From an uncultured delta proteobacterium (GTDB lineage Bacteria > Myxococcota_A > Polyangia > Haliangiales > Haliangiaceae): DNA of 64,000 nt. Made by a program: the position numbers and the translations under genes. Shown here piece by piece: positions 13,717 through 63,884 of the stretch. Location: positions 192,001 through 256,000 of the forward strand of contig CAWKDB010000011.1 in assembly GCA_963848295.1 (NCBI GenBank). Reading direction: 5' to 3'. Numbering within the stretch: position 1 is the first letter of the stretch; each line of letters begins with the position of its first letter. Under the pieces are notes generated by a model. It saw only the letters and a program-made list of their open reading frames with translations. It was not told the origin of the DNA and did not search any database.

Positions 13717-15147
13717 CTATTTCTTTAGCTTCGCGTCGAGCTCGCGGAACCTGCGCTCGGCGGTGTCCTTGAGCGCGGCCCATAGCGCGGGAAATGCGCC
13801 GGCCAGCTCGTAGAGCTCGCGCGCTGCCAGCGCGAGCAGCTCGCAATCGAACGCGGCGACGACCTTGATCGCCGACGGCTGGCGCGCGAGCAGTGCAGCC
13901 GCGCCGACGTAATCTCCGTCGGTGAGCGGCTCGAGCTCGATCAGCGAACCGTCGGGCCGGTCGACCCGGATCGACAGCGTTCCGCTGATCACGACGAAGA
14001 ACGAATGGTTCGTCTCGCCTTGCCGGATCACGACCGTCCCGGCGCGCACGCGGCGCGCTTCGAACCGAGCCAGCACCGCCGAGCGCTTGTCCGCCGGGAT
14101 CTTCGCGAAGAACGGCCCGGTCAGCGGGTTGTCTTGCAGCGCGCGCGGCTGCGTGCGATCGCCATCGTCGGGCACGTCGCCGGTGATGTCGCCCGAGATG
14201 TCGCCCGACGACTCGCTCGCTAGATCGACGGGCTCGGTCGGCGTCGCCGGTCGCGTCCAGCCCGGAAGGCGCGGCGGAGGCGTCGGCAGATCGTCGAGGT
14301 CGTCGAACCGCGGGGTCTCGGCGCCGTCGGGACCGAGCAGCCCCGAGATCCGCCGCGCGGCTTGAGCGAGCCCGGTGACCTGCGCGCGCCGGAGGTCGGC
14401 GCCCGGCCGCGTCTGCGCGCCCTCTACCACGGGCAAGTCATCGGGATCGAGGGCCGGGACCTGCGCCCCGCCCTCAGCACCGCCGAATGGCGGCGCGGTT
14501 AGATCGCCCCCGGGGACCTGCGCCCGGCCCTCAGCGCCGCCGAATGGCGGCGCGGTCAGGTCAACCCGCTCGCGCCCCGCCGTCGGATCGTAGACATGAT
14601 GCGGCACCGCCTTCGGCAGCGGCGTGGTCTCGCCCGACGGTGGCGCCTTCCCTCCCGCCGGCAGCGGCACCGAGGGGCGCATCGAAGGACGCGGCGCGGG
14701 CGCGGGCACCGGCACCGACGGACGCGACGGCCGGGGTGCTGCCATCGGCGGAACGCTCGATGCCTTCGGCTGCCGCGGACCGGCTCCCGTGCCGGTCGCG
14801 ACGCTGCGTTCGTCGCTGCCGTCCGGCATCTCGCGCGGCGGCGGCGTCCCGGCTTCCATCTCGACCGCGGCGGGCGGCGCCTCTTGGCTCGCGACGAGCT
14901 CGGCGAGCAACGCCTGGCAACCGAGGTCGCCCGGTGCGATCTCGAGCACCGCCCGGCAGACGACGAGCGCCTGGTGGGTCCGGCCTTGATCGCGATATGC
15001 AACCGCGACCGAGCGATAGAGCTCGACCCCATCGCCGTTGCGCCCGGCCTCGCACAGAGCGCCGGCGAGCGCCACACGCAGGCCGAGGTTGTCCGGCTCC
15101 TTGGCGAGCCGCTTCTCGAGATCGCGCAGCTTCGCCGCGCGGCTCAC
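13717..15147 (-). CDS. TPR-like N-terminus, Pro-rich linker and C-terminal cyclic-nucleotide-binding domain
   Basis: GTG 15147 (GTGA overlap). VVIRQGETNHSFFVVISG...GDYVGAAALL...SAIKVVA. Confidence 0.8.
   Translation of the reverse strand: MSRAAKLRDLEKRLAKEPDNLGLRVALAGALCEAGRNGDGVELYRSVAVAYRDQGRTHQALVVCRAVLEIAPGDLGCQALLAELVASQEAPPAAVEMEAGTPPPREMPDGSDERSVATGTGAGPRQPKASSVPPMAAPRPSRPSVPVPAPAPRPSMRPSVPLPAGGKAPPSGETTPLPKAVPHHVYDPTAGRERVDLTAPPFGGAEGRAQVPGGDLTAPPFGGAEGGAQVPALDPDDLPVVEGAQTRPGADLRRAQVTGLAQAARRISGLLGPDGAETPRFDDLDDLPTPPPRLPGWTRPATPTEPVDLASESSGDISGDITGDVPDDGDRTQPRALQDNPLTGPFFAKIPADKRSAVLARFEARRVRAGTVVIRQGETNHSFFVVISGTLSIRVDRPDGSLIELEPLTDGDYVGAAALLARQPSAIKVVAAFDCELLALAARELYELAGAFPALWAALKDTAERRFRELDAKLKK
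14456..14562 (+). repeat. Two tandem copies (57-bp period) of an intragenic palindromic element
   Basis: GGGACCTGCGCCC(C/G)GCCCTCAGC(A/G)CCGCCGAATGGCGGCGCGGT(T/C)AG twice. Encodes DLTAPPFGGAEG(R/G)AQVP twice. Confidence 0.9.
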
Positions 15148-15728
15148 GACGGCGTCAGTGACACCTGCGCTCTGAACGTCATCGCGGGCGAGTTTTGCGG
15201 CAACGACCACTTGGCCGCGAGATCCTTCATGCAGCTATCGAACTTGTCGTTGATCGGCGGGTTGAAGGCCGCCTGCTGATAGGCGCCGGTGCCCGAGAAG
15301 CTCGCCGACACGGTGAGCGTCACGGTCCTGGCCTGCAGGCTCGTATCGGTCTTGAGCGCGTGCTCGTAGCACTTCTGGATGCTGCCGCGCGATTTCTGCA
15401 CGAGGTTGACGAACAGCTTCGACGCGGCGGCGGTGACCTTGTCGTCGACCGGCGGCGCCGCCGAGCCAGGCTTCGGCGGATGAACGGTGAGCGTGTTGCC
15501 CTCGATCGACACCACGATCTCGGCGCCCGACCCGGCTTTGCGCATCAGGTCGGCGTTCTCCTCGACGAGCTCGGCGATCCGGCTGTCCTTGGCCTTCTTG
15601 TCCTCGTTGCAAGCGTCGAGATCGGTTTGGGTCTTCGGATCGGGTTTGTACTTGGTCTCGCCCTTACAAGCGGCGAACCCCACAACTCCCGAGACGACGA
15701 TGGCGATGGCTGCACGCGTCCGCATCAT
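15144..15728 (-). CDS. Lipoprotein with a coiled coil and AgmX/PglI C-terminal domain
   Basis: Lipobox FAAC; SRGSIQKCYEHALKTDTSLQ...FDSCMKDLAAKWSLP. Confidence 0.75.
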   Translation of the reverse strand: MMRTRAAIAIVVSGVVGFAACKGETKYKPDPKTQTDLDACNEDKKAKDSRIAELVEENADLMRKAGSGAEIVVSIEGNTLTVHPPKPGSAAPPVDDKVTAAASKLFVNLVQKSRGSIQKCYEHALKTDTSLQARTVTLTVSASFSGTGAYQQAAFNPPINDKFDSCMKDLAAKWSLPQNSPAMTFRAQVSLTPS

Positions 15729-15730
15729 AG

Positions 15731-16135
15731 TTAGCGATCTTTCTGTCTGGATCCTAAGGGGTCCGACGGATGGATGCCAGGGAGCTCGACCAGCTCCCGC
15801 ACGATCTGGCCACCTGAGACGTGTTGACGAACGACACGTTCCACCCTCTCCGCATCGACCCGATTATACAAAGCTGTAGCGCCGCGAGGGCCCGGGAGCG
15901 TCGCAAAGCCGGTGCCGATCGTAGGGGCCCCCCCCACGGTGATCTCGCGAACGAGCACGTTCGGGCCTTGCGTGCAACGGCCGAAACAGCTCTGCCAGGC
16001 CAGCTCGGTGCGCTCGTGCAGCCGATTCGCGTCGATCGCCGTGCGAAATAGCTCGTGGAGCACGGCAGAGCCACGCCGGTCGCCGCATTCGGGGCCCCGG
16101 CAAATGACGATCCGATAGCGACGGCCCCCCGACAC
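15731..16135 (-). CDS. Thioredoxin-like [2Fe-2S] ferredoxin
   Basis: CRGPEC and CFGRCTQGPN Cys pattern, LYNRVD...VVRQHV. Start approximate (GTG 16135). Confidence 0.8.
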   Translation of the reverse strand: MSGGRRYRIVICRGPECGDRRGSAVLHELFRTAIDANRLHERTELAWQSCFGRCTQGPNVLVREITVGGAPTIGTGFATLPGPRGATALYNRVDAERVERVVRQHVSGGQIVRELVELPGIHPSDPLGSRQKDR

Positions 16136-16175
16136 CGATCGAGCCTGACGGCGGAACCGACGACTGTCAACTATG

Positions 16176-17966
16176 TCATTCCACGAGCGCGTCGTTGATC
16201 GCGGTGACGAGGCTCGGCACGGTGCGTGGATCGAGCGCGATCTGATGCAGGAGCTCGTGCTCTGCCGGGCCGCCGTGATCGACGAGCGCCCGCACGATCG
16301 CGCGATCCCAGCCGGCGTCGCCGGCGATCTCGTCATCGGAGTGGTACAGCAGCACGTGCGAGGTCAGCGCCGCACGCTCTGTGCCGCCGCCGATCGCGGC
16401 GAGCGCGTCGATGACGAGCACGAGATCGGGAATCGGCGTGGTCGGTGCGTCGAGGTGGCTCTCCAAGCCCGAGACCGCTGCGGCGACGTCGACCGGATCG
16501 AGCGGCGCCGCGCCGATGCCCGCGATCGCCTTCGCGACCGGGCCGAGCGACTCGGGCTGGGTCTTCGCGAGGTAATCGGCTTGGGTCAACAGCTGCGCGG
16601 TCAGCACGGGCAGGCTCGACGGATCCTTGCGCTTCACGATCAGGTCGACGACGTCATCCTTGAGCGCGAGCGGGGCCCGATCATCGGCGAGGATCGCGAG
16701 CAGCTGGGTGGTGACCTCGGGACCGGGCAGCTTCGCGAGCGTCGCGACCGCGAGCTCCTTGACCCGCTCGAACCGCGCATCGTGATCGCGCGCGATCTCG
16801 ACGAGCGCGGTCAGCGTCTTCGCCGGCTTCGCGTCTCCCGGTGGCGACCAGCCGTCGGCATCGAACGTCGCGCCGAGCACCGGTGCGGTCGTGCCGAGCG
16901 AGAGCTCCTGGCGCACGCCGCCGGTCTTCGGGTCGAGCTCGACGATATCGCCGTTCGCCGCGACCGCGAGGATCGCCGCACCCGTGTGCGCGCTCGCGAT
17001 CAGCTCGATCCTGGGGTGGTCGTACGCCCAGGTCAGCGCGCCCGTCTTGTCGAAGCCGAACACGTAGCGAAAGTACGCGATCGCGTAACCGCCGCCGGCG
17101 AACTTCATCGGGCCTGTATCGGTCGGCTCGGTCGCCCACAACACGCGTGCGCGATCGTTCGCGCTGTAGGTCGCATCGATCGGGTCGTACATGTCGCGGC
17201 CGTAGCTCGCGCGATCGAGCTGGGGCGGGATCGTGACCTTGCCGTAGGTCGCGCCTTCGCGTGTGCCGGCGACGCTGCGCGCATCGAGCTCGAACACGCC
17301 TTGCTTCGAGCCGTAGTAAGCGACGCGGCTCGTCACCCGCAGCGTCGAGATCTGCTGGTCGATGCCGCGCAAACGCGCGAGCTGGGCGCCGGTCTTGCCG
17401 TCGAGGATCGACAGCCACTGCTCGAGGTACGGCACGTAGACAATGCCGCCCTGCGCCGCGGGGGCGCCGAGCTTGCCGGCCGAGCTCACCTTCCACTCGC
17501 GGTTGCCGCTCGAGCCGTCGAACGCCGCGATCGTGTAGCTCGCGCCGTCGTGCCACACCGCGTACGCGCGATCGCGATCCGCCGCCGCGCCGACCAGCTC
17601 GCCACCCAGGCTCACCTTCCAGCGCACGTCGCCGCGGCTCTGATCGCGCGCCACGAGCTGCTGCGCCTCGACCTCGATGATGAAGTTGCCTCCGACCCAG
17701 ATCCGCGACTGGACCTCGGCGTTGGCCTTCCACAGCCGCGCGCCGGCCGCGAGATCGAACGCCACGATCGACTTCGGGCTGGTCGCTTGCACCGCGAACA
17801 CCCGAGGCTTCTGCCAGCCGTTGACCGGCGATGGCGATGGCGGCAGCTCGCGATGCGCGAGCGCCGCGGACAGGGCACCGCGATCGTTGTCGGTCATCGC
17901 CGACAGCGAGAACACGCCTGGACCGCCGCACGCGACCAGCGCGACGGCCACGATCGCGCGGTTCAC
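16176..17966 (-). CDS. Lipoprotein with a PQQ-like beta-propeller and C-terminal HEAT-like repeats
   Basis: GTG 17966, lipobox LVAC, repeated AFDxxxGxxxW motifs, helical C-terminus. Confidence 0.8.
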   Translation of the reverse strand: MNRAIVAVALVACGGPGVFSLSAMTDNDRGALSAALAHRELPPSPSPVNGWQKPRVFAVQATSPKSIVAFDLAAGARLWKANAEVQSRIWVGGNFIIEVEAQQLVARDQSRGDVRWKVSLGGELVGAAADRDRAYAVWHDGASYTIAAFDGSSGNREWKVSSAGKLGAPAAQGGIVYVPYLEQWLSILDGKTGAQLARLRGIDQQISTLRVTSRVAYYGSKQGVFELDARSVAGTREGATYGKVTIPPQLDRASYGRDMYDPIDATYSANDRARVLWATEPTDTGPMKFAGGGYAIAYFRYVFGFDKTGALTWAYDHPRIELIASAHTGAAILAVAANGDIVELDPKTGGVRQELSLGTTAPVLGATFDADGWSPPGDAKPAKTLTALVEIARDHDARFERVKELAVATLAKLPGPEVTTQLLAILADDRAPLALKDDVVDLIVKRKDPSSLPVLTAQLLTQADYLAKTQPESLGPVAKAIAGIGAAPLDPVDVAAAVSGLESHLDAPTTPIPDLVLVIDALAAIGGGTERAALTSHVLLYHSDDEIAGDAGWDRAIVRALVDHGGPAEHELLHQIALDPRTVPSLVTAINDALVE

Positions 17967-18778
17967 TTCGCACCTCCGAGTCGCGCGTCGAGCACCTTCT
18001 GCGCCGCTTTGCGCGATTCGCGCGGTGGCGCCTTCGGTGCACCGTCGACGTACTGAGTCAGCTGATCGATCGCGGCGGCGTCGGAGATCTTGGCGATCGC
18101 CCCCACGACGTCGACGCGGGCCGAGTCCGGTCCGAAATCGGGCCGGCGCAGGACGAGCCCGAGGCATTCGGCGAGCAAGGGATCCGGCGCCTTGCCGAGG
18201 TGATCGCCGATGCGACGAGCCAGGTCCGGATCGGCGAGCTCGGCGAGGGCTTTGGCCGCTGGCTCCTCACCGAGATCGAGCAACGCGAACAGCGGATCGT
18301 ACGCCTCGCGCACGCGGCCCTTGGCAGCCGCGCTCGCCGCCTGCGCGCGGACGATGCCCGTCGGATCGTGCAAGCCAGCGACGATCGCAGCGTGCGCGAG
18401 CGGATCGGGATACGCCGCCAGTGCGTCGAGCGCCGCGCCGCGCACGGAGGGGTCCTGATGCCCGGCGTAGCGCCGGAGCGCCGCGACATCGGCCGGTGCG
18501 GGGTGCGCGACCAGCGAGAGCATCGCGGGGACCGCGACCGCCGGAGCGAGCCCGAACGCGAGCGCGTCGAGCAGCGCCTCGTGTGCCGCCGGATCGGGCG
18601 TTTCGGCGAGCGCATCGGCCGCTCGCTCGGCGAGCTCCGCATCGGTCCCCGACAGCGTCGCCGCGACTCGCGCGACATCGATCTTGGCCACCTTGGCGTG
18701 CACCGGCTTCGGCGCCGCACCGGCTGTCGAACCCGCACACATGAAGACCACGGCGTGTGCCCAGGAGATCCGCGTCAT
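17963..18778 (-). CDS. Secreted HEAT-repeat protein
   Basis: Signal-like N-terminus; DPSVRGAALDAL and DPTGIVRAQAASA repeats. Confidence 0.75.
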   Translation of the reverse strand: MTRISWAHAVVFMCAGSTAGAAPKPVHAKVAKIDVARVAATLSGTDAELAERAADALAETPDPAAHEALLDALAFGLAPAVAVPAMLSLVAHPAPADVAALRRYAGHQDPSVRGAALDALAAYPDPLAHAAIVAGLHDPTGIVRAQAASAAAKGRVREAYDPLFALLDLGEEPAAKALAELADPDLARRIGDHLGKAPDPLLAECLGLVLRRPDFGPDSARVDVVGAIAKISDAAAIDQLTQYVDGAPKAPPRESRKAAQKVLDARLGGAK

Positions 18779-18852
18779 AGCGAGCGTCGTACCTAAAACG
18801 GGGTCGCGCCGCAACTTCAGGCGAGACGCGTACGTTATACACGGCCTCGCCC

Positions 18853-19662
18853 GTGGATCCCGCCGTTCTGTCGATCCTCGCCTGCCCGCGCTGTCGCGTC
18901 GCCGCGCCGTTTGCTGACTTGCGCCACCCGCGCTGCAAGTCGTGCGGGCTCGAGCCGGCGCACACCGCCGCAAACGTCCTCGACTTGATCGACGTCGGCG
19001 CCGGTGAGCCGACGCCCGCGAACACCGAGCAGCGGCTGATGGAGAGCGACCTCGTCGCGCGCGTCTATGACCGGGTGTGGCGGCCCCTGTTTGTTCGGCT
19101 CCTCGCCGGCAAGGGCGCCGGCGCGTCGGTCGGTGGGCTGTCCGGCGAGCTGTTCATTCACAAGCACAGCCTGGCGCTCGACGATCGGCCCGGCCCGTGG
19201 CTCGACCTGTCGTGTGGTCCCGGCGCGTTCGCTCGTGCGCTCGCCGCCGCGGCGCCGGGTGCGCTGGTCGTCGGCCTCGACATCTCGCGCGCGATGCTCG
19301 ACGTCGCGGCGCAGCGCACCGGCGGCTACACGAATGTCGTGCTCGTGCGCGGCGACGCCCACGCGCTGCCGTTCATCGATGGCGCGTTCGGCGGGGTCAA
19401 CAACGCGGGGGCGCTCCACGCCTACGACGACCCCGAGCTCGTGTTCCGCGAGATCCACCGCGTGCTTCGCCCGGGTGGGCTCTACGTCGGCTCGACGTTC
19501 GCGGAAGCGCCGTCGTTGCTCGGCCGGCTCGCCGCGCGCGCCGCCGGCATCCGCCGCTTCGATCCCGGCGAGCTGCGCGCCTGGTTGCAGCGCATCGGTT
19601 TTCACGACTACGAAGACGTGCGCCTCGGCGGTGCGCTCGTGTTCCGCGCCCGCCGGCCTTAG
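18853..19662 (+). CDS. Class I SAM-dependent methyltransferase with an N-terminal Trm112-like Zn ribbon
   Basis: ILACPRC...[38 protein letters not shown]. Confidence 0.88.
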
Positions 19663-19854
19663 GCCGCGCTCGCGTAGCCGCCGCGCCCGCCGGCCTTAGG
19701 CCGCGCTCGCGTAGCCGCCGCGCCCGCCGGCCTTAGAACGCGCTCGCGTAGCCGCCGCGCCCGCCGGCCTTAGGCCGCGCTCGCGTAGCCGCCGCGCCCG
19801 CCGGCCTTAGAACGCGCTCGCGTAGCCGCCGCGCCCGCCGGCCTTAGAACGCGC
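19644..19854. repeat. 37-bp tandem repeat, about 5.7 units, between convergent genes
   Basis: Unit CCGCGCCCGCCGGCCTTAG(GC/AA)CGCGCTCGCGTAGCCG starts at 19644, 19681, 19718, 19755, 19792, with a partial unit at 19829. Confidence 0.95.
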
Positions 19855-21241
19855 CGCCGACCACGGTCAGCGCGAGGCCCTTTTGCGGCGCGAGCGCGGG
19901 CGACAACGGCGACACCGCGAACGGACCGAGGTCCCACCGGCCATCGGAGCTGCGCCCGACAATCGCGGGTGGCGCATCGCTCGGCTTGGTGTCCTTGACG
20001 TCGAGCCCTTTGTCCATGTTGCGCGTCAGGTAGAACCCGAGCCACGCGCCGGCGACCAGCCCTGCGGTCGACAACAGCCCGGTGACGCGCTCGTCCGCGG
20101 TCGTCGACGGATCGTTGATCCCGGCGTAGAGCAAGAACGGCACGGCGCCACCGGCCGCGGCGAGCCCGGCGACGCGCAGCATGCGGCGCGGTGTCGTGTT
20201 CGCATGCGGGGCCACGATCAGGCCCGTGACGACGCCCGCCGCGGTACCGAGCGCGGCGTTGAGCGAGTAGCCCTCGGTCTGCGCCGGCTGCATCAGCATG
20301 CCGATCGTCAAGCCGCCGACCGCGCCCATGCCGGCGAACGTGTCGACCAGCGCGACGTCACCCCGAGTCAGCGTGTCGTTGCTAGCGTAGAGTCCGCCGG
20401 CGAGCGCACCCACGGTCGAGCCAATCGCGGCGCCGGTCAGGACGTCGCTCGCATCGGTCGAGCCGCCGTTCGCGCCGGTCGCGATGTTGCCGAACAAGCC
20501 GCCGACCACGCCGGCCCACACGCTCGCCGCGCCGGCGGTCCGGACCTGCGCTTCGCTCCAGTTCAGCTTGTCGATCGCGCGCGGCAACAAGATCGCGCCG
20601 AGCAGGCCAGCGCCGATGCCCATCGGGACCGCGCCACTGGCCGGGTTGTTGGTGTCGAAGTACGAGCCGATCGTCGCGCCGATCAGGGCGCTGTAGATGC
20701 CCGCGTGGACCATCGCTGCGGTGTGACCGCTGTGATAATGACCCTCGGCCGGCGGAGTCACCGGCGTGACCGGCAGCGTCGGATCGACGATCGGCGCGTG
20801 GTCGACGACTGGCGGTTTGTGGTCGCCCGGGACTTCTTCGCGAATGCCGAGCTGTTGATTGGCGACCTTGATGATGTAGCGCGCGTGGTCGGCGGCCGGG
20901 CCCTTCGCGCTCTCGACCAACGCTTCGACTGCGAGCTGCTTCGCATCGACGTAGATCTTCGCGTCGAGCAGCTCTTGCGCGCGAGAGACGAGCGAGTCGG
21001 CAACCTGTTCCGCGAGCACGGGATCGCCGTTGATCGTGTACGGATCCTGCGGGCCCGAGGTCGGCCCGGGAGCCGGCGTGGATGCTGGTACCGGGGGCGG
21101 GGCCGGAGTTGGGGCGGGTGCCGGAGCAGGTGCGGGTGCCGGGGGTGCGCCGTACGGATCGACCGGTTGCGCGCTCGCCGCGCGGGCCATCGCCCCGACC
21201 ACACCGATCGCGAGCACCGTGTGAAGACGAGAAGCGAGCAT
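19844..21241 (-). CDS. Secreted/membrane protein with a Pro-rich N-terminus and Gly-rich hydrophobic helices
   Basis: Signal peptide ...ARAASA-Q, many GxxxG helices, C-terminal LTVVGGAF. Confidence 0.7.
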   Translation of the reverse strand: MLASRLHTVLAIGVVGAMARAASAQPVDPYGAPPAPAPAPAPAPTPAPPPVPASTPAPGPTSGPQDPYTINGDPVLAEQVADSLVSRAQELLDAKIYVDAKQLAVEALVESAKGPAADHARYIIKVANQQLGIREEVPGDHKPPVVDHAPIVDPTLPVTPVTPPAEGHYHSGHTAAMVHAGIYSALIGATIGSYFDTNNPASGAVPMGIGAGLLGAILLPRAIDKLNWSEAQVRTAGAASVWAGVVGGLFGNIATGANGGSTDASDVLTGAAIGSTVGALAGGLYASNDTLTRGDVALVDTFAGMGAVGGLTIGMLMQPAQTEGYSLNAALGTAAGVVTGLIVAPHANTTPRRMLRVAGLAAAGGAVPFLLYAGINDPSTTADERVTGLLSTAGLVAGAWLGFYLTRNMDKGLDVKDTKPSDAPPAIVGRSSDGRWDLGPFAVSPLSPALAPQKGLALTVVGGAF

Positions 21242-37305: not shown

Positions 37306-41376
<4,071 letters not shown>

Positions 41377-41443
41377 GGCACTCCGCTGACTAGCCGCGGC
41401 AGGGTGCACCAACCCTATGACACTGACGTGCTATCACGTCGGG

Positions 41444-43186
41444 GTGCGCTGGGTAGCTGGCATCGCGATCGCGCTGTGTACGGCGGTGGCCGTCGCCGCG
41501 CCGCAGGTCGATATCAAGGCCCAGACCCAGGTCTCGCTGAGCTCGTTCCGGCTCGCCGGAGCAGGTCGCGCCGAGGTCCGAGGCCGGCTCACCGACAAGC
41601 TGACCGGCGAGGGGCTCTCCGGCGAGATCGTGACGATCAGGGTCGGGTCGGAGACCGTGCGAGGCTATACCGAGCTCGACGGCACCTTCACCGCGCAGCT
41701 CGATGTCGACGACGGCCCGCAGGTGGTCACGCTCGCGTTTCCCGGCGGCGGTGCGCTCGATCCGGCCAGCCCCACCACCGTGACCAGCGATCCGTCGAAG
41801 GCGCCGGTCGCGCTCGATGTCCGCAAGGTCGATGACGATCCGCGCGGGGTCAAGCTGATCGTGCGGGCCAGCGTCGACGGCGAGCCGATCGCACTGCCGA
41901 TCGCGCTATCGATCAGCGCGCCGGGCAGCGACAAGCGCGTCGAGCTGCCACCAGCGACGTCGAACCAGCCGCTCGTGGTCGGCCGCAAGCAAGTCGGTGG
42001 TCCCGGGCCCAAGCAATTGCGCGCCGCGTTCGCGGGCGATCTCACCCACCAGCCGGCGAGCGCCGAGACGACGTTCGAGCTGTCCGCGACGACGCAGACC
42101 ACGATGTCGTTGGCGAGCGCGACCTTGCCCTTCGAGGACAAGCTCGCGGTCACCGGCCAAGTCATCGACGAGGACGGCGCGCCCGTGCCGCTCGCGGCGG
42201 TCACTCTCAGCGCAAACGAGCGAGAGCTCGCCCACGGCCAGACCGGCGACGACGGCCACTATGCCTTCGAGGTCGAGGGCGCGGTGATCGCGCCAGACAA
42301 GACCGATCTGCCCGAGCCGTTCACGCTGCAAGTCGCGAGCGATCCGGGCAAGCCGTTCCTGACCTCGAGCAAGTCACCGCCCGCGACCGTGAAGGTCGAG
42401 AAACCGCAGCCCGTGCCTGTGTCGTACACGATGGGTGCGTTCCTCGTCACCGCGCTGGCCGCGGGCGGGTTCTTCGCCGCGCGCGGTAAGCCGTGGCAAC
42501 GGTTTCGTCGCCGCGCGCCGCCGGCCGAAGCGACGGAGGCCGCCGAGCCCGTGGTCGCGCGCGACGGCGGCATGGTGATCGCGAAGCCGAGCATGATGTC
42601 GACGCTGCGCCGCGCCGCCGATGACGGGTTCTCGGGCGCGGTCCGCGACACGGTGCGCGGCCGTCCGGTCGGTGAGGCGGTCGTCCGCCTGGTGTTCGGT
42701 GCGCTCGACGGCCGCGGCTTGCCCGCGGTCGGCAGCGCCGCCGAAGGGCGGCGCGGTGAGAGCGAGCTGGAAGCTCGGACCGCCGCCGACGGCAGCTTCG
42801 CGTTCGAGCGGCTCGAGCCCGGCGAGTGGCGCGCCGAGGTCGCGGCGCCCGGGCACGTCACCGAGCGGTTCGCGGTCACGATCCCGCATCGCGGCGAGCT
42901 CCGCGGCGTCCGCGTCGACCTCGTGCCGGTGCGCGAGCGCGTGTTCCAGCTCTATCGCCGCGCCGCCGAGCCGGTGCTTCCCGAGCCGCGGCTGTGGGGC
43001 GTGTGGTCGCCGCGCCAGATCGTCGATCACGTGCGCGCGCGTCGGCCGAGCCCTGCGCTCGCCGAGCTGACCGACTTCGTCGAAGAGGTCTACTTCTCGG
43101 CGCGATTGTCTGAAGAGACGGCGCTCGTCCTCGCCTCTGCGCGCGTCGATCGCGCGATTGCGGAACGAGCGACAGGCCGCGCTTAG
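41444..43186 (+). CDS. Secreted/membrane protein with Ig-like and carboxypeptidase-regulatory-like domains, a TM helix and a DUF4129-like C-terminus
   Basis: Signal peptide; GQVIDEDGAPVPLAAVTL; RTAADGSFAFERLEPGEWRAEVAAPGH; WSPRQI...LTDFVEEVYF. Confidence 0.7.
   Translation: MRWVAGIAIALCTAVAVAAPQVDIKAQTQVSLSSFRLAGAGRAEVRGRLTDKLTGEGLSGEIVTIRVGSETVRGYTELDGTFTAQLDVDDGPQVVTLAFPGGGALDPASPTTVTSDPSKAPVALDVRKVDDDPRGVKLIVRASVDGEPIALPIALSISAPGSDKRVELPPATSNQPLVVGRKQVGGPGPKQLRAAFAGDLTHQPASAETTFELSATTQTTMSLASATLPFEDKLAVTGQVIDEDGAPVPLAAVTLSANERELAHGQTGDDGHYAFEVEGAVIAPDKTDLPEPFTLQVASDPGKPFLTSSKSPPATVKVEKPQPVPVSYTMGAFLVTALAAGGFFAARGKPWQRFRRRAPPAEATEAAEPVVARDGGMVIAKPSMMSTLRRAADDGFSGAVRDTVRGRPVGEAVVRLVFGALDGRGLPAVGSAAEGRRGESELEARTAADGSFAFERLEPGEWRAEVAAPGHVTERFAVTIPHRGELRGVRVDLVPVRERVFQLYRRAAEPVLPEPRLWGVWSPRQIVDHVRARRPSPALAELTDFVEEVYFSARLSEETALVLASARVDRAIAERATGRA
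42714..42760 (+). repeat. Intragenic palindromic element copy
   Basis: GCGCCGCC-GAAG-GGCGGCGC hairpin. 37/47 ungapped identity to 14513-14559. Confidence 0.8.
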
Positions 43187-56109: not shown

Positions 56110-56134
56110 AGGTGACGCTGTCTCTTTTGTCAAC

Positions 56135-57505: not shown

Positions 57506-57518
57506 GCGCGCGGACCTC

Positions 57519-57784: not shown

Positions 57785-57831
57785 CGCTCCGCCGCTCGCG
57801 AGAGTCCGCGGTCCGGGCTACGCTCCGCGCA

Positions 57832-58308
57832 GTGACGCCCGAGCAGACTCGCTGCGTGATGACGCAGATCGTGATGCCGATGCACACCAACGGTGCCGCC
57901 GGCGTCATGTTCGGCGGGATCATGATGCAGTGGATCGACGTGTGCGCCGCGATCTCCGCGATGCGCCACGCGAGCGGCCAGGTGCTCACCGCCGCGATCG
58001 ATCGCCTCGACTTCTTGTCGCCGGTCCATGTCGGCGAGGTCGTCGTGCTGCAAGCGCAGGTCAACTACACCTCGAAGACCTCGATGGAGGTCGGCTGTCG
58101 CGTCGAGACAGAGGACATGCGGTCTGCGACCCGGCGTTACGTCACGAAGGCGTACTTGACGTTCGTGGCGACCGACGAGATCGGCCGGCCGCGCAAGATC
58201 CCCGCGATCACGCTCGCGAGCGACGAGGATCGCCGGCGCCACGGCGAAGCGGAGGCCCGCCGGCGCGAACGCCTGCGCGCTGCCGGTCGGCTTGGAGACT
58301 CACCATGA
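57832..58308 (+). CDS. Acyl-CoA thioesterase (hotdog fold)
   Basis: [47 protein letters not shown]. Confidence 0.92.
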
Positions 58309-59123
58309 TCGATCGCACCGCAATGCCCTCTGGCGACGCCGCCGGCGCGGCGCAAGCACGGACCGTCGACCGCAGCGACTGGGGCCGGCTGCGGTTGACC
58401 GGCGGCGATCGCCAGCGCTTTCTCCAAGGGTTGACGACGATCAACGTCGACGCGCTCGCCGACGGCGCCCATGGCTGGGGCGCGATCCTGTCGCCGAAGG
58501 GTCGCGTGCTCGCCGTGATCGACGTGGCACGCCAAGCGGACGCGTTCGTCGTGAGCTGCGAGCCGGCGATCGCGGACAAGACGCGCGCGCTGCTCGAACG
58601 CTACGCGGTGATGGACGAGGTCTCGTTCGAGCCCCTCGCCGGTCCCGCGCACCAGGCGTGGACCGACGCGCCCTCGGTGTGGACCGCGCCGATCATCGGC
58701 GCCGCAGGACCCGGTGCGCTCGGCGATGGCGATCCGGCGATCGACCGCCTGCGCATTCACGCCGGGTTCATGCGCTACGGGGTCGATGTCGACGAGGACC
58801 ACTTCCCGTTCGAGACCCCGCTCGTCGGCTTCCTCGACTACGGCAAGGGCTGTTACGTCGGCCAAGAACCGGTGTTTCGCGTCCACGCGCAAGGCAACGC
58901 CGCGCGCGCGCTGCGCGGGTTCGCGATCGAAGGTGCAGGCACGATCGCGGCCGGTACGCCGATCAAGCACGCGACGCGTGACAACGCCGGTGTCGTGACC
59001 TCGGCGATCGGCGACGGCGATCGCACGATCGCACTCGGCTACTTGCACCGCACGTGCTGGGACGTCGGAGGAACCGTCGAGATCGACGGGCGCACCGCGA
59101 TCGTCCAGGCGCTGCCGTGGTGA
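58305..59123 (+). CDS. ygfZ: Folate-binding YgfZ/GcvT family protein
   Basis: [22 protein letters not shown], signature KGCYVGQE. Confidence 0.88.
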
Positions 59124-60403
59124 GACTGGCGGTGCTGGCGTTGCTCGCCGGCTGCAGCTACCTGACGAGCAGCTTCGTCGACAACGATTTCTCCGGCGAC
59201 TCGTTTCCGATCGCGGTCGACACCTCGAGCGGCGCGCTGATGATCGGTGTGCGCACCGATGGCGCGGCGGATCGCATCGGCGTGCTCGACGTGCTGTCGC
59301 CGATCACGGTGTTCGACAACGGGATCGATGCCACGCCGTCGATCTCGAATCCCGATCGCGTCACGCTGCTCGGCGAGGACGCCTCGGGAGCGCTCACCAT
59401 CCCGCGCGCGTCGCTGCAACAACCGCAAGTGGTCTCGTTGCATCCGTGCGCGGCGGATGACTGCGTGGTCGGAACGCCGTCCGCGCCGGTCGAGTTCGGC
59501 GCGCTGATCGGAGATGACGCGTTCGGCGGGGACGCGCTGCGCCTGCACCTGGCCGAGAGCCAGATCTTCGTCCTGCCGGACATCGCCGGCGACTCCGAGC
59601 ACCGCTCGTACGCGTGCGACGGCGTGTTCGGCGGCGACTCGAGCACGACCCCGTTTCGCGGCGGCGGTACGCTCGTGCTCGGCGGCACCGAGGTCGACTT
59701 CACGAACTGGCGGATCACGATCGACGCCTGTCTGTCGCCGAACCCGAGCGCAGCGCTGCAGAGCGATCGCGGCACCGACGTGCTGCTCGTCGCGTCGACC
59801 GCGCTCGGCGTATCGCTGCTCGACGAATCCGCGTACGCGCGCTACCTCGAGAGTCATCCGACCGCGCCACCGCTCGACACGCTGCCGATGGACTCGGTCA
59901 ACCTGCCGTCCGGTCCGGTGACCGGACATCGCACGTCGATCTCGACGCTCGCACTGGTCGCGAACTCGTCGAGCGAGCCGCGCTCGCCATGCCGCCAGGT
60001 CTACGCGCACCACCTGCTCGAGCTCCGTGACTGCAAGCCCAGCGATGACTGCCCGTGCACGGTCAACGACCCCGACGACAACCACCACTTCTGCACCGTG
60101 CCCGCGATCACCGAGATCGGCCCCGCCGCCGGCATCGACTTTCTGATCATCCCGGACGACGATCCGACGCTTCAAGCGCTGACCACCGAGCTCGAGCCCG
60201 ATCAGCCGATCGTCGACGGCATCCTCGCGAACGGGGCAATTCACGACACCGACGTCGATATCGATTACCAGCACGATCGCCTGCTGATGCGCTGCGCGGA
60301 CCCCTCGGCGCCGACCTGCAAGATCCGGCCGGAGATCGTGCGCGCCGCGGATCGCGTCGAGGTCAACGCCTGCATCGGCCATACGCCCGGCCCCGTACGC
60401 TAG
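59120..60403 (+). CDS. Lipoprotein with a degenerate two-lobed aspartic-protease-like pattern
   Basis: Lipobox LAGC; VLDVLSPITV, GALIGDDAF, LLVASTALGVSLL, VDGILANG...VDIDYQHDRL. Confidence 0.65.
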   Translation: MRLAVLALLAGCSYLTSSFVDNDFSGDSFPIAVDTSSGALMIGVRTDGAADRIGVLDVLSPITVFDNGIDATPSISNPDRVTLLGEDASGALTIPRASLQQPQVVSLHPCAADDCVVGTPSAPVEFGALIGDDAFGGDALRLHLAESQIFVLPDIAGDSEHRSYACDGVFGGDSSTTPFRGGGTLVLGGTEVDFTNWRITIDACLSPNPSAALQSDRGTDVLLVASTALGVSLLDESAYARYLESHPTAPPLDTLPMDSVNLPSGPVTGHRTSISTLALVANSSSEPRSPCRQVYAHHLLELRDCKPSDDCPCTVNDPDDNHHFCTVPAITEIGPAAGIDFLIIPDDDPTLQALTTELEPDQPIVDGILANGAIHDTDVDIDYQHDRLLMRCADPSAPTCKIRPEIVRAADRVEVNACIGHTPGPVR

Positions 60404-60500
60404 GAGCGACTCGAGGGCATCACCGAGACCGCGGTGCCCGGTGAGAGGCTGACAGCCGGCTTCGGTCGACACGCCGGCGCCGCGGAGGTCTGCTGCCGCG

Positions 60501-61697
60501 ATGCTGAACGCTCGAACCGTCGCGCTCGCCGTCCTCGTCGCGGGCTGCGGTGACAACCTCGCCACCCCTCCCGATGCCGCCAGCCCGGACGCCCCGATGG
60601 CCGACGCGCCGTGGGCACCTGCCGCGCACTACGCGCAGCCACAGGGTACGACGCTCGGTGGGCCGACGCTATCGGCGCCGAACGTCGTCCCGATCTTCTT
60701 CACCGGCGACAGCGACATGCAGGGCCAGATCGAGCGCTTCCTCGCTGCCCTACCCGGCTCGCCATACTGGAGCGCGACGACGAGCGAATACGCGGTCGGC
60801 GACATCACGATCCAGCCGAGCATCGTGTCGAGCGACCCACCGCCGACGACCGACGACGCGTTGCAGGCGTGGATCGTCCAGAACAGCGATGGCCTGCACG
60901 ACTGGCCGGCGAACACGCCGAACACGATCTACACGGTGTTCTTGCCCGATGGCGTGACGCTCTCGACGCCGTTCGGCGCCAGCTGCTCGTCCTTCGGCGG
61001 GTACCACGACGAGACCCAGGTCGGCGCGGTGGTCTACGCGCTGCTGCCGCGCTGTCGTGCGGGCGTGCTCGACTCGATCACGCCGGCGATCAGCCACGAG
61101 CTGGTCGAGGCGTCGACCGATCCATTTCCCGAGACGATGGGAGCGTATCAAGACACCGATGCGGCGCACGCGATCTGGAGCCTGATCCCGGGCGGCGAGC
61201 TCGGCGACATGTGCGAGTTCGTCGACAGCGCGTTCGATCGTTCCCTCGGCAGCTACCTCGTGCAACGCACCTGGTCGAACGCGGCCGCGGCCGCCGGCCA
61301 TGACCCGTGCGTGCCGCAAGACCCCGCGACGGCGTATCGCGGCGCGGTGCCGCTGCTCACCGATCACCTGCCGTTCTTCGATGAAGTCGGCAACTCGGTG
61401 ACGACCGACGGCGTCGCGGTCGCGACCGGGACATCGCGGACCGTCGAGGTCGATCTATTTTCCGATCTGCCCACCGACCTGTGGCAGGTCGAGGCGATCG
61501 ATGTGGCTTCGATGTTCGAGGGCAGCGCGGCCGAGCTGCAACTGTCGCTCGATCACAACGCCGGCAAGAACGGCGACAAGCTGCAGCTGACGATCCACCG
61601 GATCAAGGCTGGCCAGGAGGGCGGCAGCGTCGCGCTGATCGAGTCGTTCATCGGTGGCAACACGGTGAGCGAATACTGGGTGTGGGTGAGTAACTAG
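60501..61697 (+). CDS. Lipoprotein with a Phi-1/EXORDIUM-like or zincin-like HELxE motif
   Basis: Lipobox VAGC; FGGYHDE, ISHELVEASTDP, GELGDMC, VQRTWSN. Confidence 0.7.
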   Translation: MLNARTVALAVLVAGCGDNLATPPDAASPDAPMADAPWAPAAHYAQPQGTTLGGPTLSAPNVVPIFFTGDSDMQGQIERFLAALPGSPYWSATTSEYAVGDITIQPSIVSSDPPPTTDDALQAWIVQNSDGLHDWPANTPNTIYTVFLPDGVTLSTPFGASCSSFGGYHDETQVGAVVYALLPRCRAGVLDSITPAISHELVEASTDPFPETMGAYQDTDAAHAIWSLIPGGELGDMCEFVDSAFDRSLGSYLVQRTWSNAAAAAGHDPCVPQDPATAYRGAVPLLTDHLPFFDEVGNSVTTDGVAVATGTSRTVEVDLFSDLPTDLWQVEAIDVASMFEGSAAELQLSLDHNAGKNGDKLQLTIHRIKAGQEGGSVALIESFIGGNTVSEYWVWVSN

Positions 61698-61699
61698 AC

Positions 61700-62383
61700 T
61701 CAGTCGCTGAGCACGTCGGCGGGCGTGCCGGTCTTGACGATGCCGCCGCGCTCGATCCGCACGACGCGATCGGCGAGCACCTTTGCCTCGCGCTCGGAGT
61801 GCGTGACGTAGATGACCGGGACCGCGAGCTCGGCCGCGAGATCCTTGACGAGCGCGGCGAGCTGGCCCCGCAGGTCGCGATCGAGTGCCGAGAGCGGCTC
61901 GTCGAGCAGCATCAGCTTCGGCGACCGAGCAATCGCGCGAGCGAGTGCGACGCGCTGCGCTTCGCCACCCGACAGCGTGCCCGGCTTGCGATCGGCGAGC
62001 TGGGCCGTGCCGACGCGCTCGAGCAGCGCCCTCGCCTTCTGAGACCGCGCCGCTCGGGGCAGCTCCGCCATGCCGTACTCGACGTTCTCCGAGGCCGTGA
62101 GGTGCGGAAATAGCGCGAGTCCCTGGAACACGAACGCGAGCGGCCGCGCGTGGACGGGCACGTCGATCTTGCGAGCCGCATCGAACCACAGCTCGTCGCC
62201 GAGCGCGATCCGTCCGCGATCCGGCCGGAGGAGGCCCGCGAGCAACGCGAGCAGCGTGCTCTTGCCTGCGCCCGACGGGCCCATGATGCACGTGATGCCC
62301 GGGGGACACGTGAGCTCGAGATCGAGCACGAACCCGTCGGTGCGCGCGAGTGCGACGGTGGCCGTCAACGCCGCGCTAGCCAC
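61700..62383 (-). CDS. modC: Molybdate-type ABC transporter ATPase (short, no TOBE domain)
   Basis: GPSGAGKST, VFQGLALFPHL, LSGGEAQRV, LLDEP, YVTH. Confidence 0.85.
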   Translation of the reverse strand: MASAALTATVALARTDGFVLDLELTCPPGITCIMGPSGAGKSTLLALLAGLLRPDRGRIALGDELWFDAARKIDVPVHARPLAFVFQGLALFPHLTASENVEYGMAELPRAARSQKARALLERVGTAQLADRKPGTLSGGEAQRVALARAIARSPKLMLLDEPLSALDRDLRGQLAALVKDLAAELAVPVIYVTHSEREAKVLADRVVRIERGGIVKTGTPADVLSD

Positions 62384-63059
62384 GGCGATGCAGCCGCCTC
62401 GTCATGCGGTTCGCGAGGTAGAGCAGCAGCACGCCGACGACCGTCATCGCGATCGCCATCGTGAACGCGTTGTGCTCGTGATGCGGCGTGATGTATTCGC
62501 CGTAGACATAGATCGAAGCGGTGCTCGCGTCGTGGATGCCGACGCCATCGACGCGCGAGCCCGCGACCATCATCGTGATGCCGTAGTCGCCGAGCGAGCG
62601 CGCGAACCCGAGCATCGCCCCGGCGACGATCCCCGGCGCGGCGAGCGGCAACGTGATCGTCATCAACACCCGGCCCGGCGCGGCACCGAGCGTGCGAGCC
62701 GCGGCGACGAGCTTGCCGTCGACCGCGTCGAGCCCGACCCGGATCGCGCGCACGACCAGCGGCAACGAGCCGACGGTCGCCGCGATCACCGCACCGGTGA
62801 ACGTGAACGCGATCGGCTCGCCGAACACGCTCTCCCACGCGCGACCGACGGCGCTATCCGGCCCGAGCGACACGAGCAAGTAATAGCCGAGCACGGTCGG
62901 CGGCAAGACGAGCGGCGCCGACACGATCGCATCGAGCAAGTGCCGGCCTGGCAGCTTCGGCGAACCGAGCGCGAGCGCGAGCACGGTGCCGAGCACGACC
63001 GCGACGATCGTCGCGATCGTCGCGATCTGCAGCGAGAGTGCGAGGGGCGCCCAGGTCAA
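62376..63059 (-). CDS. modB: Molybdate ABC transporter permease
   Basis: PLALSLQIA, PLVLPPTVLGYYLL, AARTLGA, FARSLGDYGITMMVAG. Confidence 0.88.
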   Translation of the reverse strand: MTWAPLALSLQIATIATIVAVVLGTVLALALGSPKLPGRHLLDAIVSAPLVLPPTVLGYYLLVSLGPDSAVGRAWESVFGEPIAFTFTGAVIAATVGSLPLVVRAIRVGLDAVDGKLVAAARTLGAAPGRVLMTITLPLAAPGIVAGAMLGFARSLGDYGITMMVAGSRVDGVGIHDASTASIYVYGEYITPHHEHNAFTMAIAMTVVGVLLLYLANRMTRRLHRRG

Positions 63060-63068
63060 AGGTGACGT

Positions 63069-63884
63069 CTACTCGATCGCGGGATTCTTCGGGATCCGCA
63101 CGACGAAGACCGCGCCGAGGTCGCCGCGGGTCTCGACGTGGATCGTGCCGCCGTGCGCTTCGATCGCGAGCTTGCAGAAGTAGAGGCCGAGGCCGCGATT
63201 CGCGCGCGCCGAAGCGCGCCGGCGCTCGACCTGGAAGTAGCGGCCGAAGATCCGATCGCGCTCCGCTTCGGGGACCGGCGGACCGTTGTTGCCGATCGCG
63301 ACCTCGAGCGAGGCGCCCGCGACGCTCGCAGCTTGCCCTCGAACGTCAGCGCTCCCGGGTGGCGGTGCGGGTGTGATGAACCGCGCGCCGATCGCACACC
63401 GGCCACCGCGCGGCGCGTAGCGCGTCGCATTGTCCAACAGATTTTCGATCACGCGGCCGAACAGCTCGCGATCGACGTTGACCAGCATGTCGGGGTCGAC
63501 CTCGACGTCGCAACCGAGCTGGCGGACCTCGAAGTGTGGGCGGGCGCCGGCGCGAGCGCGATCGACCAGCTCGATCAGTCGGACCGGCTGGATGTTCGCG
63601 TGCAAGATGCCGTCCTCGAGCTCGTCGACATCGAGGATCGTCGAGACCAGGCCGAGCGCCTTGCCGAGCAGCGTCGTCGCGTCGTCGATGTAGCCGTTCG
63701 CCTGCTTGGCGTCGGGATAGCTCGAGATCTCCTCGCGGAGCAGCTCGAGGTAGCCCTGGATCGCCGACAACGGGCTGCGCAGATCGTGGACGACGAGCGC
63801 GGCGAGCACGCGCTTCTTCTCGCGCAGCTCGCGCGCCGAGTCGCTCTCGTCCTGCGTATCCGCGCGCTTGACGCCAGCGGTCAC
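63069..63884 (-). CDS. Sensorless histidine kinase (HisKA + HATPase)
   Basis: VHDLRSPL, ENLLDNATRY, NNGPPVP, IFGRY, GLGLYFC, HGG. Only about 30 aa precede the H-box. Confidence 0.9.
   Translation of the reverse strand: MTAGVKRADTQDESDSARELREKKRVLAALVVHDLRSPLSAIQGYLELLREEISSYPDAKQANGYIDDATTLLGKALGLVSTILDVDELEDGILHANIQPVRLIELVDRARAGARPHFEVRQLGCDVEVDPDMLVNVDRELFGRVIENLLDNATRYAPRGGRCAIGARFITPAPPPGSADVRGQAASVAGASLEVAIGNNGPPVPEAERDRIFGRYFQVERRRASARANRGLGLYFCKLAIEAHGGTIHVETRGDLGAVFVVRIPKNPAIE
63328..63370 (+). repeat. Degenerate copy of the intragenic palindromic element
   Basis: 32/43 ungapped identity to 42714-42756. Encodes PAPPPGSADVRGQAA within an HATPase loop. Confidence 0.65.

What the first reader, a model, noticed from the sequence alone, without database searches (positions are those of the whole stretch)
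14456..63370. Palindromic DNA element family inserted in-frame inside unrelated protein-coding genes (4 copies, translated on both strands)
Seen in sequence: one ~45-57 bp motif with core CAGCGCCGCC-GAA(G/T)-GGCGGCGCGGT(N)AG, whose GCGCCGCC arms form an 8-bp hairpin. It occurs at 14456-14505 and 14513-14562 (tandem, 57-bp period, cNMP-protein linker), at 42714-42760 (carboxypeptidase-regulatory-like domain) and, degenerate, at 63328-63370 (histidine kinase HATPase loop). Manual ungapped identities are 37/47 (14513 vs 42714) and 32/43 (42714 vs 63328). The minus-strand hosts read it as LTAPPFGGAEGRAQV or TPAPPPGSADVRGQAA, while the plus-strand host reads the opposite strand as GRGLPAVGSAAEGRRGE, so conservation is at the DNA level, not the protein level. 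In the kinase and the 41444 gene it sits where such folds normally have a short turn, adding roughly 17-20 aa without breaking frame. Established knowledge: Rickettsia palindromic elements (RPE) insert into coding regions this way, and REP elements are spread by RAYT-type transposases. Inference: a possibly undescribed myxobacterial REP/RPE-like mobile element that creates new peptide loops.
Basis: partly seen in the sequence, partly recalled or inferred. Interest (0 to 1): 0.85.

Follow-up and report, generated by a model that had tools for sequence, protein, structure and literature searches.

The report
57-base jumping hairpin inside myxobacterial genes
A 57-base twin-hairpin DNA element occurs 175 times in this genome, mostly in frame inside predicted genes such as the single-copy era, where relatives lack exactly those 19 codons; it likely spreads by single-strand "peel-and-paste" transposition into TCGA sites and would add loops to proteins much as Rickettsia palindromic elements do.

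Summary
Confirmed, and much larger than reported. The motif is part of a 57-bp element with two covarying hairpins: 175 copies at 152 sites in the genome, 0 in a Markov control. 115 sites lie in frame in 108 predicted genes, including era, recG, lhr, plsX and an EF-G paralogue. A sister genome (~90% flank identity) gives 32 exact 57-bp empty sites. They show insertion 3' of a TCGA core, with the element ending in its own ATCGA and no target duplication. Frame use follows the codon phase of TCGA. The family is essentially confined to one genus (Kofleriaceae, inferred from record titles). Lineages with 58/59-bp units are intergenic; the high-copy lineages mostly have units of 3n bases. The end anatomy is that of an IS200/IS605-type non-autonomous element. 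However, no mobilising gene was found: 0 of 59 Y1 transposase loci are flanked, and there is no replichore bias. In-frame palindromic elements are a known kind (Rickettsia RPE, intragenic REPs). This scan has noted RPE-like families on other DNA but not this family. Verdict: new variant of a known kind; enzyme unproven.

The parts
14447..14450 (+). TCGA target core, 5' of the tandem pair (flank-derived by analogy with the empty-site analysis)
14451..14507 (+). 57-bp element, first copy of the tandem pair; read antisense in the linker of the TPR/cNMP-binding protein
   Evidence: matrix 73 bits; 3 of 4 orthologues lack about 34-38 aa here, the fourth about 21
14508..14564 (+). 57-bp element, second copy of the tandem pair (local duplication, inferred from shared rare bases)
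   Evidence: matrix 60 bits; 86% identical to the first copy
13717..15147 (-). host gene: TPR-like and cNMP-binding domain protein
42705..42708 (+). TCGA target core, present once in the empty allele of G125
42709..42765 (+). 57-bp element read in sense frame; hairpin 1 at about 42709-42731, hairpin 2 at 42735-42754, then the tail and terminal core
   Evidence: matrix 69 bits; exact 57-bp gap in G125; 16 of 19 orthologues have a 19-residue gap, 3 of 19 an unrelated insert
41417..43186 (+). host gene: carboxypeptidase-regulatory-like domain protein
58309..58365 (-).
   Evidence: matrix 53 bits; host family
63323..63379 (+). degenerate 57-bp element read antisense inside the HATPase_c domain
   Evidence: matrix 36 bits; 4 of 4 orthologues lack 19 aa here
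63069..63884 (-). host gene: histidine kinase (HisKA, HATPase_c)
39273..39327 (-). decayed, shortened copy in frame in smc; weak
   Evidence: nhmmer E 0.057, first-half score 23 bits; G125 contigs break here, so no empty-site test

Best explanation
This is a 57-bp two-hairpin mobile DNA element that sits directly 3' of a TCGA core and ends in its own ATCGA, without target duplication, and it is likely moved in trans as single-stranded DNA by an HUH (Y1) transposase, like a minimal IS200/IS605 non-autonomous element. Shown: mobility (filled and empty alleles), the target rule, both stems, the length, and in-frame residence. Inferred: the element would be cut at the flank core and at its terminal core, circularise, and insert after another TCGA. 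Because 57 is 19 codons and most frames are open, insertions into surface loops and linkers survive. Each insertion regenerates a terminal TCGA, and local re-copying gives head-to-tail arrays. Old copies decay, often by in-frame deletion. The peptide is likely a tolerated passenger, not a selected domain. The enzyme is not identified; the RAYT-like Y1 proteins are the only single-strand transposase family found in all high-copy genomes tested.
For: Target and polarity: in 31 clean empty sites the core is TCGA in 14 and within one mismatch in 26 (random 1.3% and 9.4%). The empty core matches the left copy beyond shuffles (101 vs 93, 0 of 5000) but not the right copy (91 vs 89, p=0.23), and this holds when stratified by frame. 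No left-right core covariation in 115 single copies, so no duplication. This is the TAM/TEM, no-duplication pattern described for IS200/IS605 (passages of 10.1101/2023.03.14.532601 and PMC5027513). Both stems covary (43 double-change cells vs 12.7 shuffled). One strand folds better (97 of 120 with DNA parameters, 102 of 120 with RNA). The loops keep C-Y-Y-G and G-N-A patterns, which I recall as stable DNA mini-loops. Y1 found in 5 of 5 high-copy genomes, IS110 and TnpB in 0 of 5, Y2 in 1 of 5. Frame classes 93/20/2 of 115 match the TCGA codon phase (chi-square p=0.75).
Against: No autonomous element with these ends was found. None of 59 Y1 loci is flanked within about 1.5 kb, a Y1 profile hits 0 of 161 element loci, and the genome's Y1 genes carry a different upstream repeat. 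Y1 occurs in 88 of 91 genus genomes, so its presence does not discriminate, and G116 (100% complete) has 10 pattern hits but no Y1 match. No replichore bias: 78 vs 73 sites, p=0.74, whereas IS608/ISDra2 favour the lagging-strand template (PMC5027513). No guide-core covariation at the ten position pairs tested. Weak microhomology beyond the core (p about 0.01-0.02) and doubled divergence next to junctions (23% vs 10%) are not predicted by precise peel-and-paste.
Confidence: 0.45

Rival explanations
1. No dedicated transposase: host replication or repair copies the element by template switching or microhomology-primed gene conversion at TCGA, with the hairpins stalling or bridging the fork.
For: No flanked mobiliser; no replichore bias; element bases 55-57 and 6-9 resemble the target flanks slightly more than shuffles do (p 0.009, 0.02, 0.008); junction-proximal mismatch 23% vs 10%; adjacent array units are 98% identical vs 67% for random pairs, so local copying does occur.
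Against: Insert length is exactly 57n at 32 of 50 non-shared sites. The core is strict and polar. Both stems are kept by compensatory change across dispersed copies, which implies recognition at each round of spread. The family is restricted to one genus with bursts in some genomes.
Confidence: 0.25
2. A site-specific recombinase (tyrosine, serine or IS110 type) crosses a circular element into the TCGA core, as proposed for the cyanobacterial module SDR5 at HIP1.
For: One shared core at the empty site and two at the filled site, with no duplication, also fits a core crossover. SDR5 inserts precisely inside GCGATCGC (passage in PMC4390886), and the element's end contains GATCG.
Against: IS110 found in 0 of 5 high-copy genomes. 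The empty core follows the left copy through all four bases rather than splitting within it. TCGA and CGATCG are not over-represented (O/E 0.99 and 0.96). A 57-bp double-stranded circle is very strained (own knowledge). Tyrosine and serine recombinases were not surveyed.
Confidence: 0.15
3. The element is a small structured RNA copied back into DNA by a reverse transcriptase such as a group II intron maturase.
For: Strand-asymmetric folding with G-T pairs more common than A-C fits RNA as well as single-stranded DNA; G000 has 3 maturase matches.
Against: Group II maturase found in 0 of the 6 other top-copy genomes (G125, G081, G085, G094, G107, G098). No Rfam match at E<=1 in 5 loci. Hairpin 2's loop is G-N-A-K, not GNRA. 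Other reverse transcriptase classes were not surveyed.
Confidence: 0.07
4. The repeats are kept for a host function (a shared peptide tag, or an mRNA/DNA regulatory hairpin), and mobility is secondary.
For: One frame class is favoured (antisense 65 vs sense 28 at the same codon phase, p=1.6e-4). Intergenic sites are enriched (23 of 152 vs 7.5% of TCGA sites, p=0.002).
Against: Four different peptides are made from the same DNA. In 5 shared in-frame pairs pN/pS is 0.67 in the insert vs 0.12 and 0.34 in the flanks. Only 18 of 68 comparable G125 sites are shared with G000. Most genus members have 0-2 hits. The frame bias is partly explained by a TAG variant absent from sense-frame copies (0 of 24 vs 12 of 68).
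Confidence: 0.08

Closest known systems
Rickettsia palindromic elements (RPE; Ogata et al. 2000, 2002, as summarised in passages of PMC10969869, PMC3184786 and section 15 of PMC3733652; the originals were not read)
   Same: Palindromic DNA repeat inserted in frame in unrelated, often housekeeping genes, apparently compatible with the fold; no encoded mobiliser.
   Different: 57 bp vs about 105-150 bp; two short hairpins; a defined TCGA target and polarity from 31 empty sites; a GC-rich 7.8-Mb genome; 115 in-gene sites vs 44 insertions with nearly half in ORFs as the review puts it (I recall several hundred RPEs over all ten families; not checked); no RPE-type NCBIfam hit.
IS200/IS605 non-autonomous elements (PATEs; passages of 10.1101/2023.03.14.532601 and PMC5027513)
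   Same: Two hairpins, insertion 3' of a short flank motif, an element-encoded terminal motif, no target duplication, no coding capacity, a preferred strand for folding.
   Different: No cognate IS with the same ends and no TnpB found; the left hairpin abuts the target with no room for a 5' guide; no guide covariation found; no lagging-strand bias; mass in-frame residence in genes.
GTAG/CGTC REPs and RAYT (TnpA-REP) REPtrons (PMC3733652 section 15 and passages; passages of PMC8266576)
   Same: Short GC-rich hairpin repeats, tandem arrays, patchy abundance among relatives, some intragenic copies (O. terrae, R. conorii); RAYT-like Y1 genes present in the genome.
   Different: No fixed GTAG/CGTC tag at a hairpin foot (GTAG occurs only in the tail of some copies, mainly in the intergenic lineages); a fixed two-hairpin unit with defined ends; mostly intragenic; no flanked transposase.
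Cyanobacterial SDR5 / HIP1 (one passage in PMC4390886; Elhai et al. 2008 not held)
   Same: Very small module inserting precisely at a short palindromic site related to GATCG.
   Different: The target here is a 4-base core that is not over-represented, the host phylum differs, and no sequence comparison with SDR5 was possible.

Membership tests
RPE | palindromic repeat in frame in unrelated ORFs, with empty orthologues | tested here: met
RPE | length about 105-150 bp | tested here: not met
   57 bp; RPE lengths from PMC3184786 and PMC10969869
RPE | sequence kinship with Rickettsia RPE families | tested here: inconclusive
   no RPE-named NCBIfam hit on 6 proteins or segments at E<=0.1; I did not confirm the RPE models are in that library and had no RPE DNA to align; the GTDB-wide pattern scan returned no Rickettsia record
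RPE | insert expressed in the protein | not testable with these tools
   no proteomic data; open frames and an intact single-copy era are indirect
IS200/IS605 non-autonomous element (PATE) | insertion 3' of a 4-5 base flank motif | tested here: met
IS200/IS605 non-autonomous element (PATE) | no target site duplication; element-encoded terminal motif | tested here: met
IS200/IS605 non-autonomous element (PATE) | hairpins at both ends, strand-specific | tested here: met
IS200/IS605 non-autonomous element (PATE) | guide sequences 5' of the hairpins that covary with the motifs | tested here: inconclusive
   no covariation in ten position pairs or among the top 30 pairs; the cores vary little
IS200/IS605 non-autonomous element (PATE) | cognate autonomous IS with the same ends | tested here: not met
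   0 of 59 Y1 loci flanked, 0 of 161 element loci with Y1, TnpB 0 of 5; the assemblies are incomplete
IS200/IS605 non-autonomous element (PATE) | lagging-strand-template bias | tested here: not met
   78 vs 73 of 151 sites, p=0.74; replichores inferred from a weak GC skew
IS200/IS605 non-autonomous element (PATE) | circular single-stranded intermediate made by TnpA | not testable with these tools
   needs biochemistry
GTAG/CGTC REP with RAYT | conserved GTAG or CGTC tag at the foot of the palindrome | tested here: not met
GTAG/CGTC REP with RAYT | mostly extragenic | tested here: not met
   115 of 152 sites in genes in G000; met only in the 58/59-bp lineages
GTAG/CGTC REP with RAYT | RAYT gene flanked by the repeats | tested here: not met
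Classical MITE | terminal inverted repeats and target site duplication | tested here: not met
   the ends are a direct core repeat that does not covary
SDR5/HIP1-type module | target is a highly over-represented palindrome | tested here: not met
   O/E 0.99 for TCGA and 0.96 for CGATCG against a maximal-order Markov expectation

The most novel reading that the evidence does not exclude
A 57-nucleotide minimal peel-and-paste transposon, moved in trans by the genus's RAYT-like Y1 enzymes, acts as a natural in-frame linker-scanning mutagen. Lineages whose unit length drifted to a multiple of three escaped confinement to intergenic DNA and colonised over a hundred proteins, including essential ones, so unit length modulo three sets the element's niche and copy number. 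It would give the first defined target rule and a candidate enzyme for RPE-type protein-coding palindromes.
Probability: 0.35. Interest if true: 0.82.

Novelty: new variant of a known kind. Interest (0 to 1): 0.6.

Why it matters
How RPE-type palindromes move into genes is, to my knowledge, unresolved; the papers I read name no mobiliser for them. This family gives dozens of exact filled/empty allele pairs, a target rule, a polarity, and a 57-nt substrate short enough to order as an oligonucleotide, so the mechanism becomes directly testable. It is also a natural map of 19-residue insertions tolerated in more than 100 proteins. A rough estimate is that 25-45% of coding insertions survive relative to intergenic ones. 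The length variants across one genus form a natural experiment on how a non-coding repeat becomes protein-coding. It is not a new category: in-frame palindromic elements are known.

Tried and rejected
Mobiliser hunts that found nothing: Y1 loci in 11 genomes (59 loci, scanned; only weak partial hits, and G125:C41 has two copies 1.8 and 2.3 kb from a Y1 gene); IS110, TnpB and Y2 in five genomes; separated left and right ends enclosing a gene in G000 (read by eye); recurring neighbour families in 161 element loci (only response regulators, kinases and other common families); group II maturase. No copies in viral contigs. One weak 81% match each in plasmids and phages, taken as chance. No Rfam match. 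Target-site duplication rejected. HIP1-like over-representation rejected. Loop-as-guide idea rejected. Replichore bias absent. Sequencing runs: no RNA holder listed; three DNA runs with small shares, contigs only, no listed joint that skips an element (only the best-supported joints were shown), so uninformative. The Era tree is unresolved at depth, so monophyly of the high-copy genomes is neither shown nor excluded. The first Era extraction picked the neighbouring GTPase and was redone. Ogata 2002 and Elhai 2008 are not held. No covariance-model search or R-scape run was made.
Full report
OBSERVATION. The four stretches are present as described, and the identities 37/47 and 32/43 are exact. 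A short-word BLAST against the whole assembly G000 (7.78 Mb, 11 contigs, 85% complete) returned many further copies. An iterated ungapped 62-column matrix gave 175 hits above 12 bits against 0 in an order-7 Markov simulation of equal size; nhmmer gave 169 against 0 at E<=0.01. The window holds five matrix hits and one decayed copy.

ANATOMY. The 62 columns are a left NTCGA, 52 inner bases and a right ATCGA, so the period is 57. Mutual information among 123 distinct copies picks out two stems: columns 6-13 with 21-28 and columns 32-39 with 44-51. On 30 of the copies (those in the host loci I had fetched, plus the window), 91.5% of cells pair and 43 cells change on both sides, against 12.7 in shuffles; slid registers give 35-55%. 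That control ignores relatedness among copies. The plus orientation folds better in 97 of 120 copies with DNA parameters and 102 of 120 with RNA parameters. The loops keep C-Y-Y-G and G-N-A-K; that these are stable DNA mini-loops is my recollection. There are 10 head-to-tail arrays of 2-5 units; adjacent units are 98% identical against 67% for random pairs. No Rfam family matched 5 loci at E<=1.

POSITION IN GENES. I called genes with a self-trained dicodon model (6995 genes, 90% coding), not a standard caller. Of 175 copies, 131 are inside genes, 15 overlap a gene end and 29 are intergenic. Collapsed to 152 sites: 115 in 108 genes, 14 partial, 23 intergenic. Of the 115, 75 are internal with coding signal on both sides and 17 lie within 30 codons of a predicted start, so those may be extragenic. 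Pfam on 26 hand-picked hosts names Era, an EF-G, RecG, Lhr (three copies), UvrD, a glycerol-phosphate-oxidase-type flavoprotein, PlsX, CinA, a SNF2 helicase, sirohaem enzymes, a transpeptidase and others; 2 of 26 had no family. Era has no second copy in the genome, whereas the EF-G is one of three paralogues. In an AlphaFold model of Era (mean pLDDT 75) the insert region, residues 158-176, is a coil with pLDDT under 50 between a helix and a strand.

EMPTY SITES. At 42709-42765, 16 of 19 orthologues have a 19-residue gap and 3 carry unrelated inserts (one of the three is the unpublished G010). G125 lacks exactly the 57 bases and keeps one CTCGA. The kinase lacks 19 residues in 4 of 4 orthologues; the cNMP linker lacks about 34-38 in 3 of 4. 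Era lacks the peptide in 29 of 29 orthologues fetched, of 85 genomes with a match (28 of 28 without G010). I took 90 G125 loci covering part of its 142 pattern matches. They gave 85 sites: 18 shared with G000, 32 empty in G000 with an exact 57n difference, 18 with another difference (11 of them multiples of three) and 17 without an orthologue. One misregistered site was dropped. In the other 31 the empty core is TCGA in 14 and within one mismatch in 26, against 1.3% and 9.4% at random. The empty site follows the left flank through column 5 and the right flank from column 7. Its core matches the left copy beyond shuffles (0 of 5000) and the right copy no better than chance (p=0.23). Left and right cores do not covary in 115 single G000 copies. 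So the element is columns 6-62, inserts 3' of TCGA, carries its own terminal ATCGA and makes no duplication. Direction (gain in one genome or loss in the other) is fixed by outgroups only for the window sites and era. One search showed the same pattern on titled records; these may overlap with handle genomes and are not added to the counts.

SELECTION. TCGA falls at codon phases 79/18/3% and in-gene sites at 93/20/2 of 115 (p=0.75), so frame use is a by-product of the target. At the main phase the antisense reading is favoured 65 to 28 (p=1.6e-4), partly because a TAG variant is excluded from sense copies (0 of 24 vs 12 of 68). Intergenic sites are enriched over the 7.5% of TCGA sites; relative retention of coding insertions is roughly 0.25-0.45, assuming intergenic ones are neutral. 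In 5 shared in-frame pairs pN/pS is 0.67 in the insert against 0.12 and 0.34 in the flanks (small sample). Column variability correlates 0.93 between antisense-frame and non-coding copies, 0.6-0.8 for most other pairs of classes and 0.3-0.6 for the smallest class.

DISTRIBUTION. A hairpin-2 pattern with one mismatch over 138 family genomes gave 10 or more hits in 15 of 91 genus genomes (110, 108, 60, 56, 49, 34, 27, 18 and down), at most 2 in the 47 others, and 0-3 for the reversed control. The exact pattern hit 38 of 90 other genus genomes and 2 of 56 outside the genus. These tallies include the unpublished G010 and G088 (0 and at most 1 hit). A scan of 185,579 species genomes gave 48 loci from 11 assemblies: 38 loci titled Kofleriaceae, 8 Deltaproteobacteria and 2 Acidobacteriota, the last aligning to G000 at 75-88% in their flanks. 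The family placement of G000 is inferred from this. Unit length varies by lineage. G016 (58) and G091 (59 in one array, 57 in another) were intergenic at 5 of 5 sites each, G114 at 6 of 6, and a related metagenomic subfamily at 22 of 23. G098 (60) was in genes at 5 of 6, G107 (57) at 3 of 5, G085 (54/57) at 2 of 5 with three cut by contig ends, G008 at 2 of 6, and G127 at 2 of 2 for the 57 type and 0 of 1 for the 58 type. Against a simple rule: G030 (54 in one array) was intergenic at 5 of 5 and G081 (51/54/56) at 3 of 3. The seven highest-copy genomes all show mainly 3n periods. These are samples of the first-listed loci, kin are not independent, and the Era tree is unresolved at depth.

MECHANISM. 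Insertion 3' of a short flank motif, an element-encoded terminal motif, two hairpins, strand asymmetry and no duplication are the features described for IS200/IS605 elements and their non-coding derivatives (passages of PMC5027513 and 10.1101/2023.03.14.532601). Y1 HUH proteins of about 250 residues are the only single-strand transposase family found in all five high-copy genomes tested; IS110 and TnpB were found in none and Y2 only in G000. The link is not made, however. None of 59 Y1 loci is flanked and none of 161 element loci holds a Y1 gene. The Y1 genes carry another upstream repeat. Y1 is in 88 of 91 genus genomes and missing from G116, which has 10 hits. Orientation is unrelated to replichore (78 vs 73), and no guide covariation was seen. 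Weak microhomology just outside the core and doubled divergence beside junctions are unexplained and favour a host-copying rival. I put HUH peel-and-paste at 0.45, enzyme-free copying at 0.25, a core-crossover recombinase at 0.15, a host-function reading at 0.08 and an RNA route at 0.07. That the element is mobile DNA with this target and length I put at about 0.95. That the inserts are translated is inferred from open frames and an intact single-copy era.

WHAT IS KNOWN. It works like an RPE but fails RPE membership on length; it has PATE-like ends but lacks a cognate IS; it is not a GTAG/CGTC REP or a classical MITE. Papers seen: PMC10969869, PMC3184786, PMC4390886, PMC5027513, PMC8266576 and the bioRxiv preprint as passages; PMC3733652 as passages plus section 15. 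The Ogata and Elhai originals were not held, and no supplements were read (the intragenic REP table of PMC3733652 could bear on scale). The main text of PMC3733652 does not mention Haliangium, Sorangium, Anaeromyxobacter or Myxococcus. Searches for a description of this family found none: Kofleriaceae + repeat + palindrom, 0 papers; palindromic element + protein-coding + in-frame + insertion + Myxococc, 1 unrelated paper; Myxococcota + MITE + REP + intragenic, 7 papers, none containing Myxococcota. The library lacks most subscription journals. The scan's own index has no record of this sequence but lists eight RPE-like findings in other taxa.

VERDICT. Real, large and cleanly defined; a new variant of a known kind. 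Interest 0.6, or about 0.82 if a Y1 enzyme is shown to move it.

Noticed in passing
window 19630-19865: 37-bp tandem array of about six near-identical units between genes 18853-19662 (+) and 19844-21217 (-).
   Followed up: no
G000:C10:1438964-1439173 and 11 other places: A different repeat of about 180 bp lies upstream of most of the RAYT-like Y1 genes; 12 matches in G000. Possibly the real substrate or a leader RNA of these transposases.
   Followed up: partly
L035, L038, L047 (G010, unpublished), L032, at the site matching window 42709: Unrelated inserts of 16, 16 and 13 residues at the same turn, and 10 residues just beside it: the loop is an insertion hotspot.
   Followed up: no
G000:C2 near 586999 and C10 near 3847880; window 39273-39327: Decayed copies 15 bp shorter than their orthologous copies, having lost most of hairpin 2; the smc copy is also shortened.
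   Followed up: partly
31 G125/G000 junctions: Mismatch next to junctions is 23% against 10% further out, with weak microhomology at columns 55-57 and 6-9; unexplained.
   Followed up: partly
G000:C10:52819-54262 (L211): An IS91-type Y2 transposase, found only in G000 among five genomes; no element within its locus.
   Followed up: partly
genus g1: RAYT-like Y1 genes are in 88 of 91 genomes, up to 37 matches per genome: an expanded family in its own right.
   Followed up: no
L079, L095: Two loci titled Acidobacteriota align to G000 at 75-88% in their flanks, suggesting a mislabelled or mixed bin.
   Followed up: no
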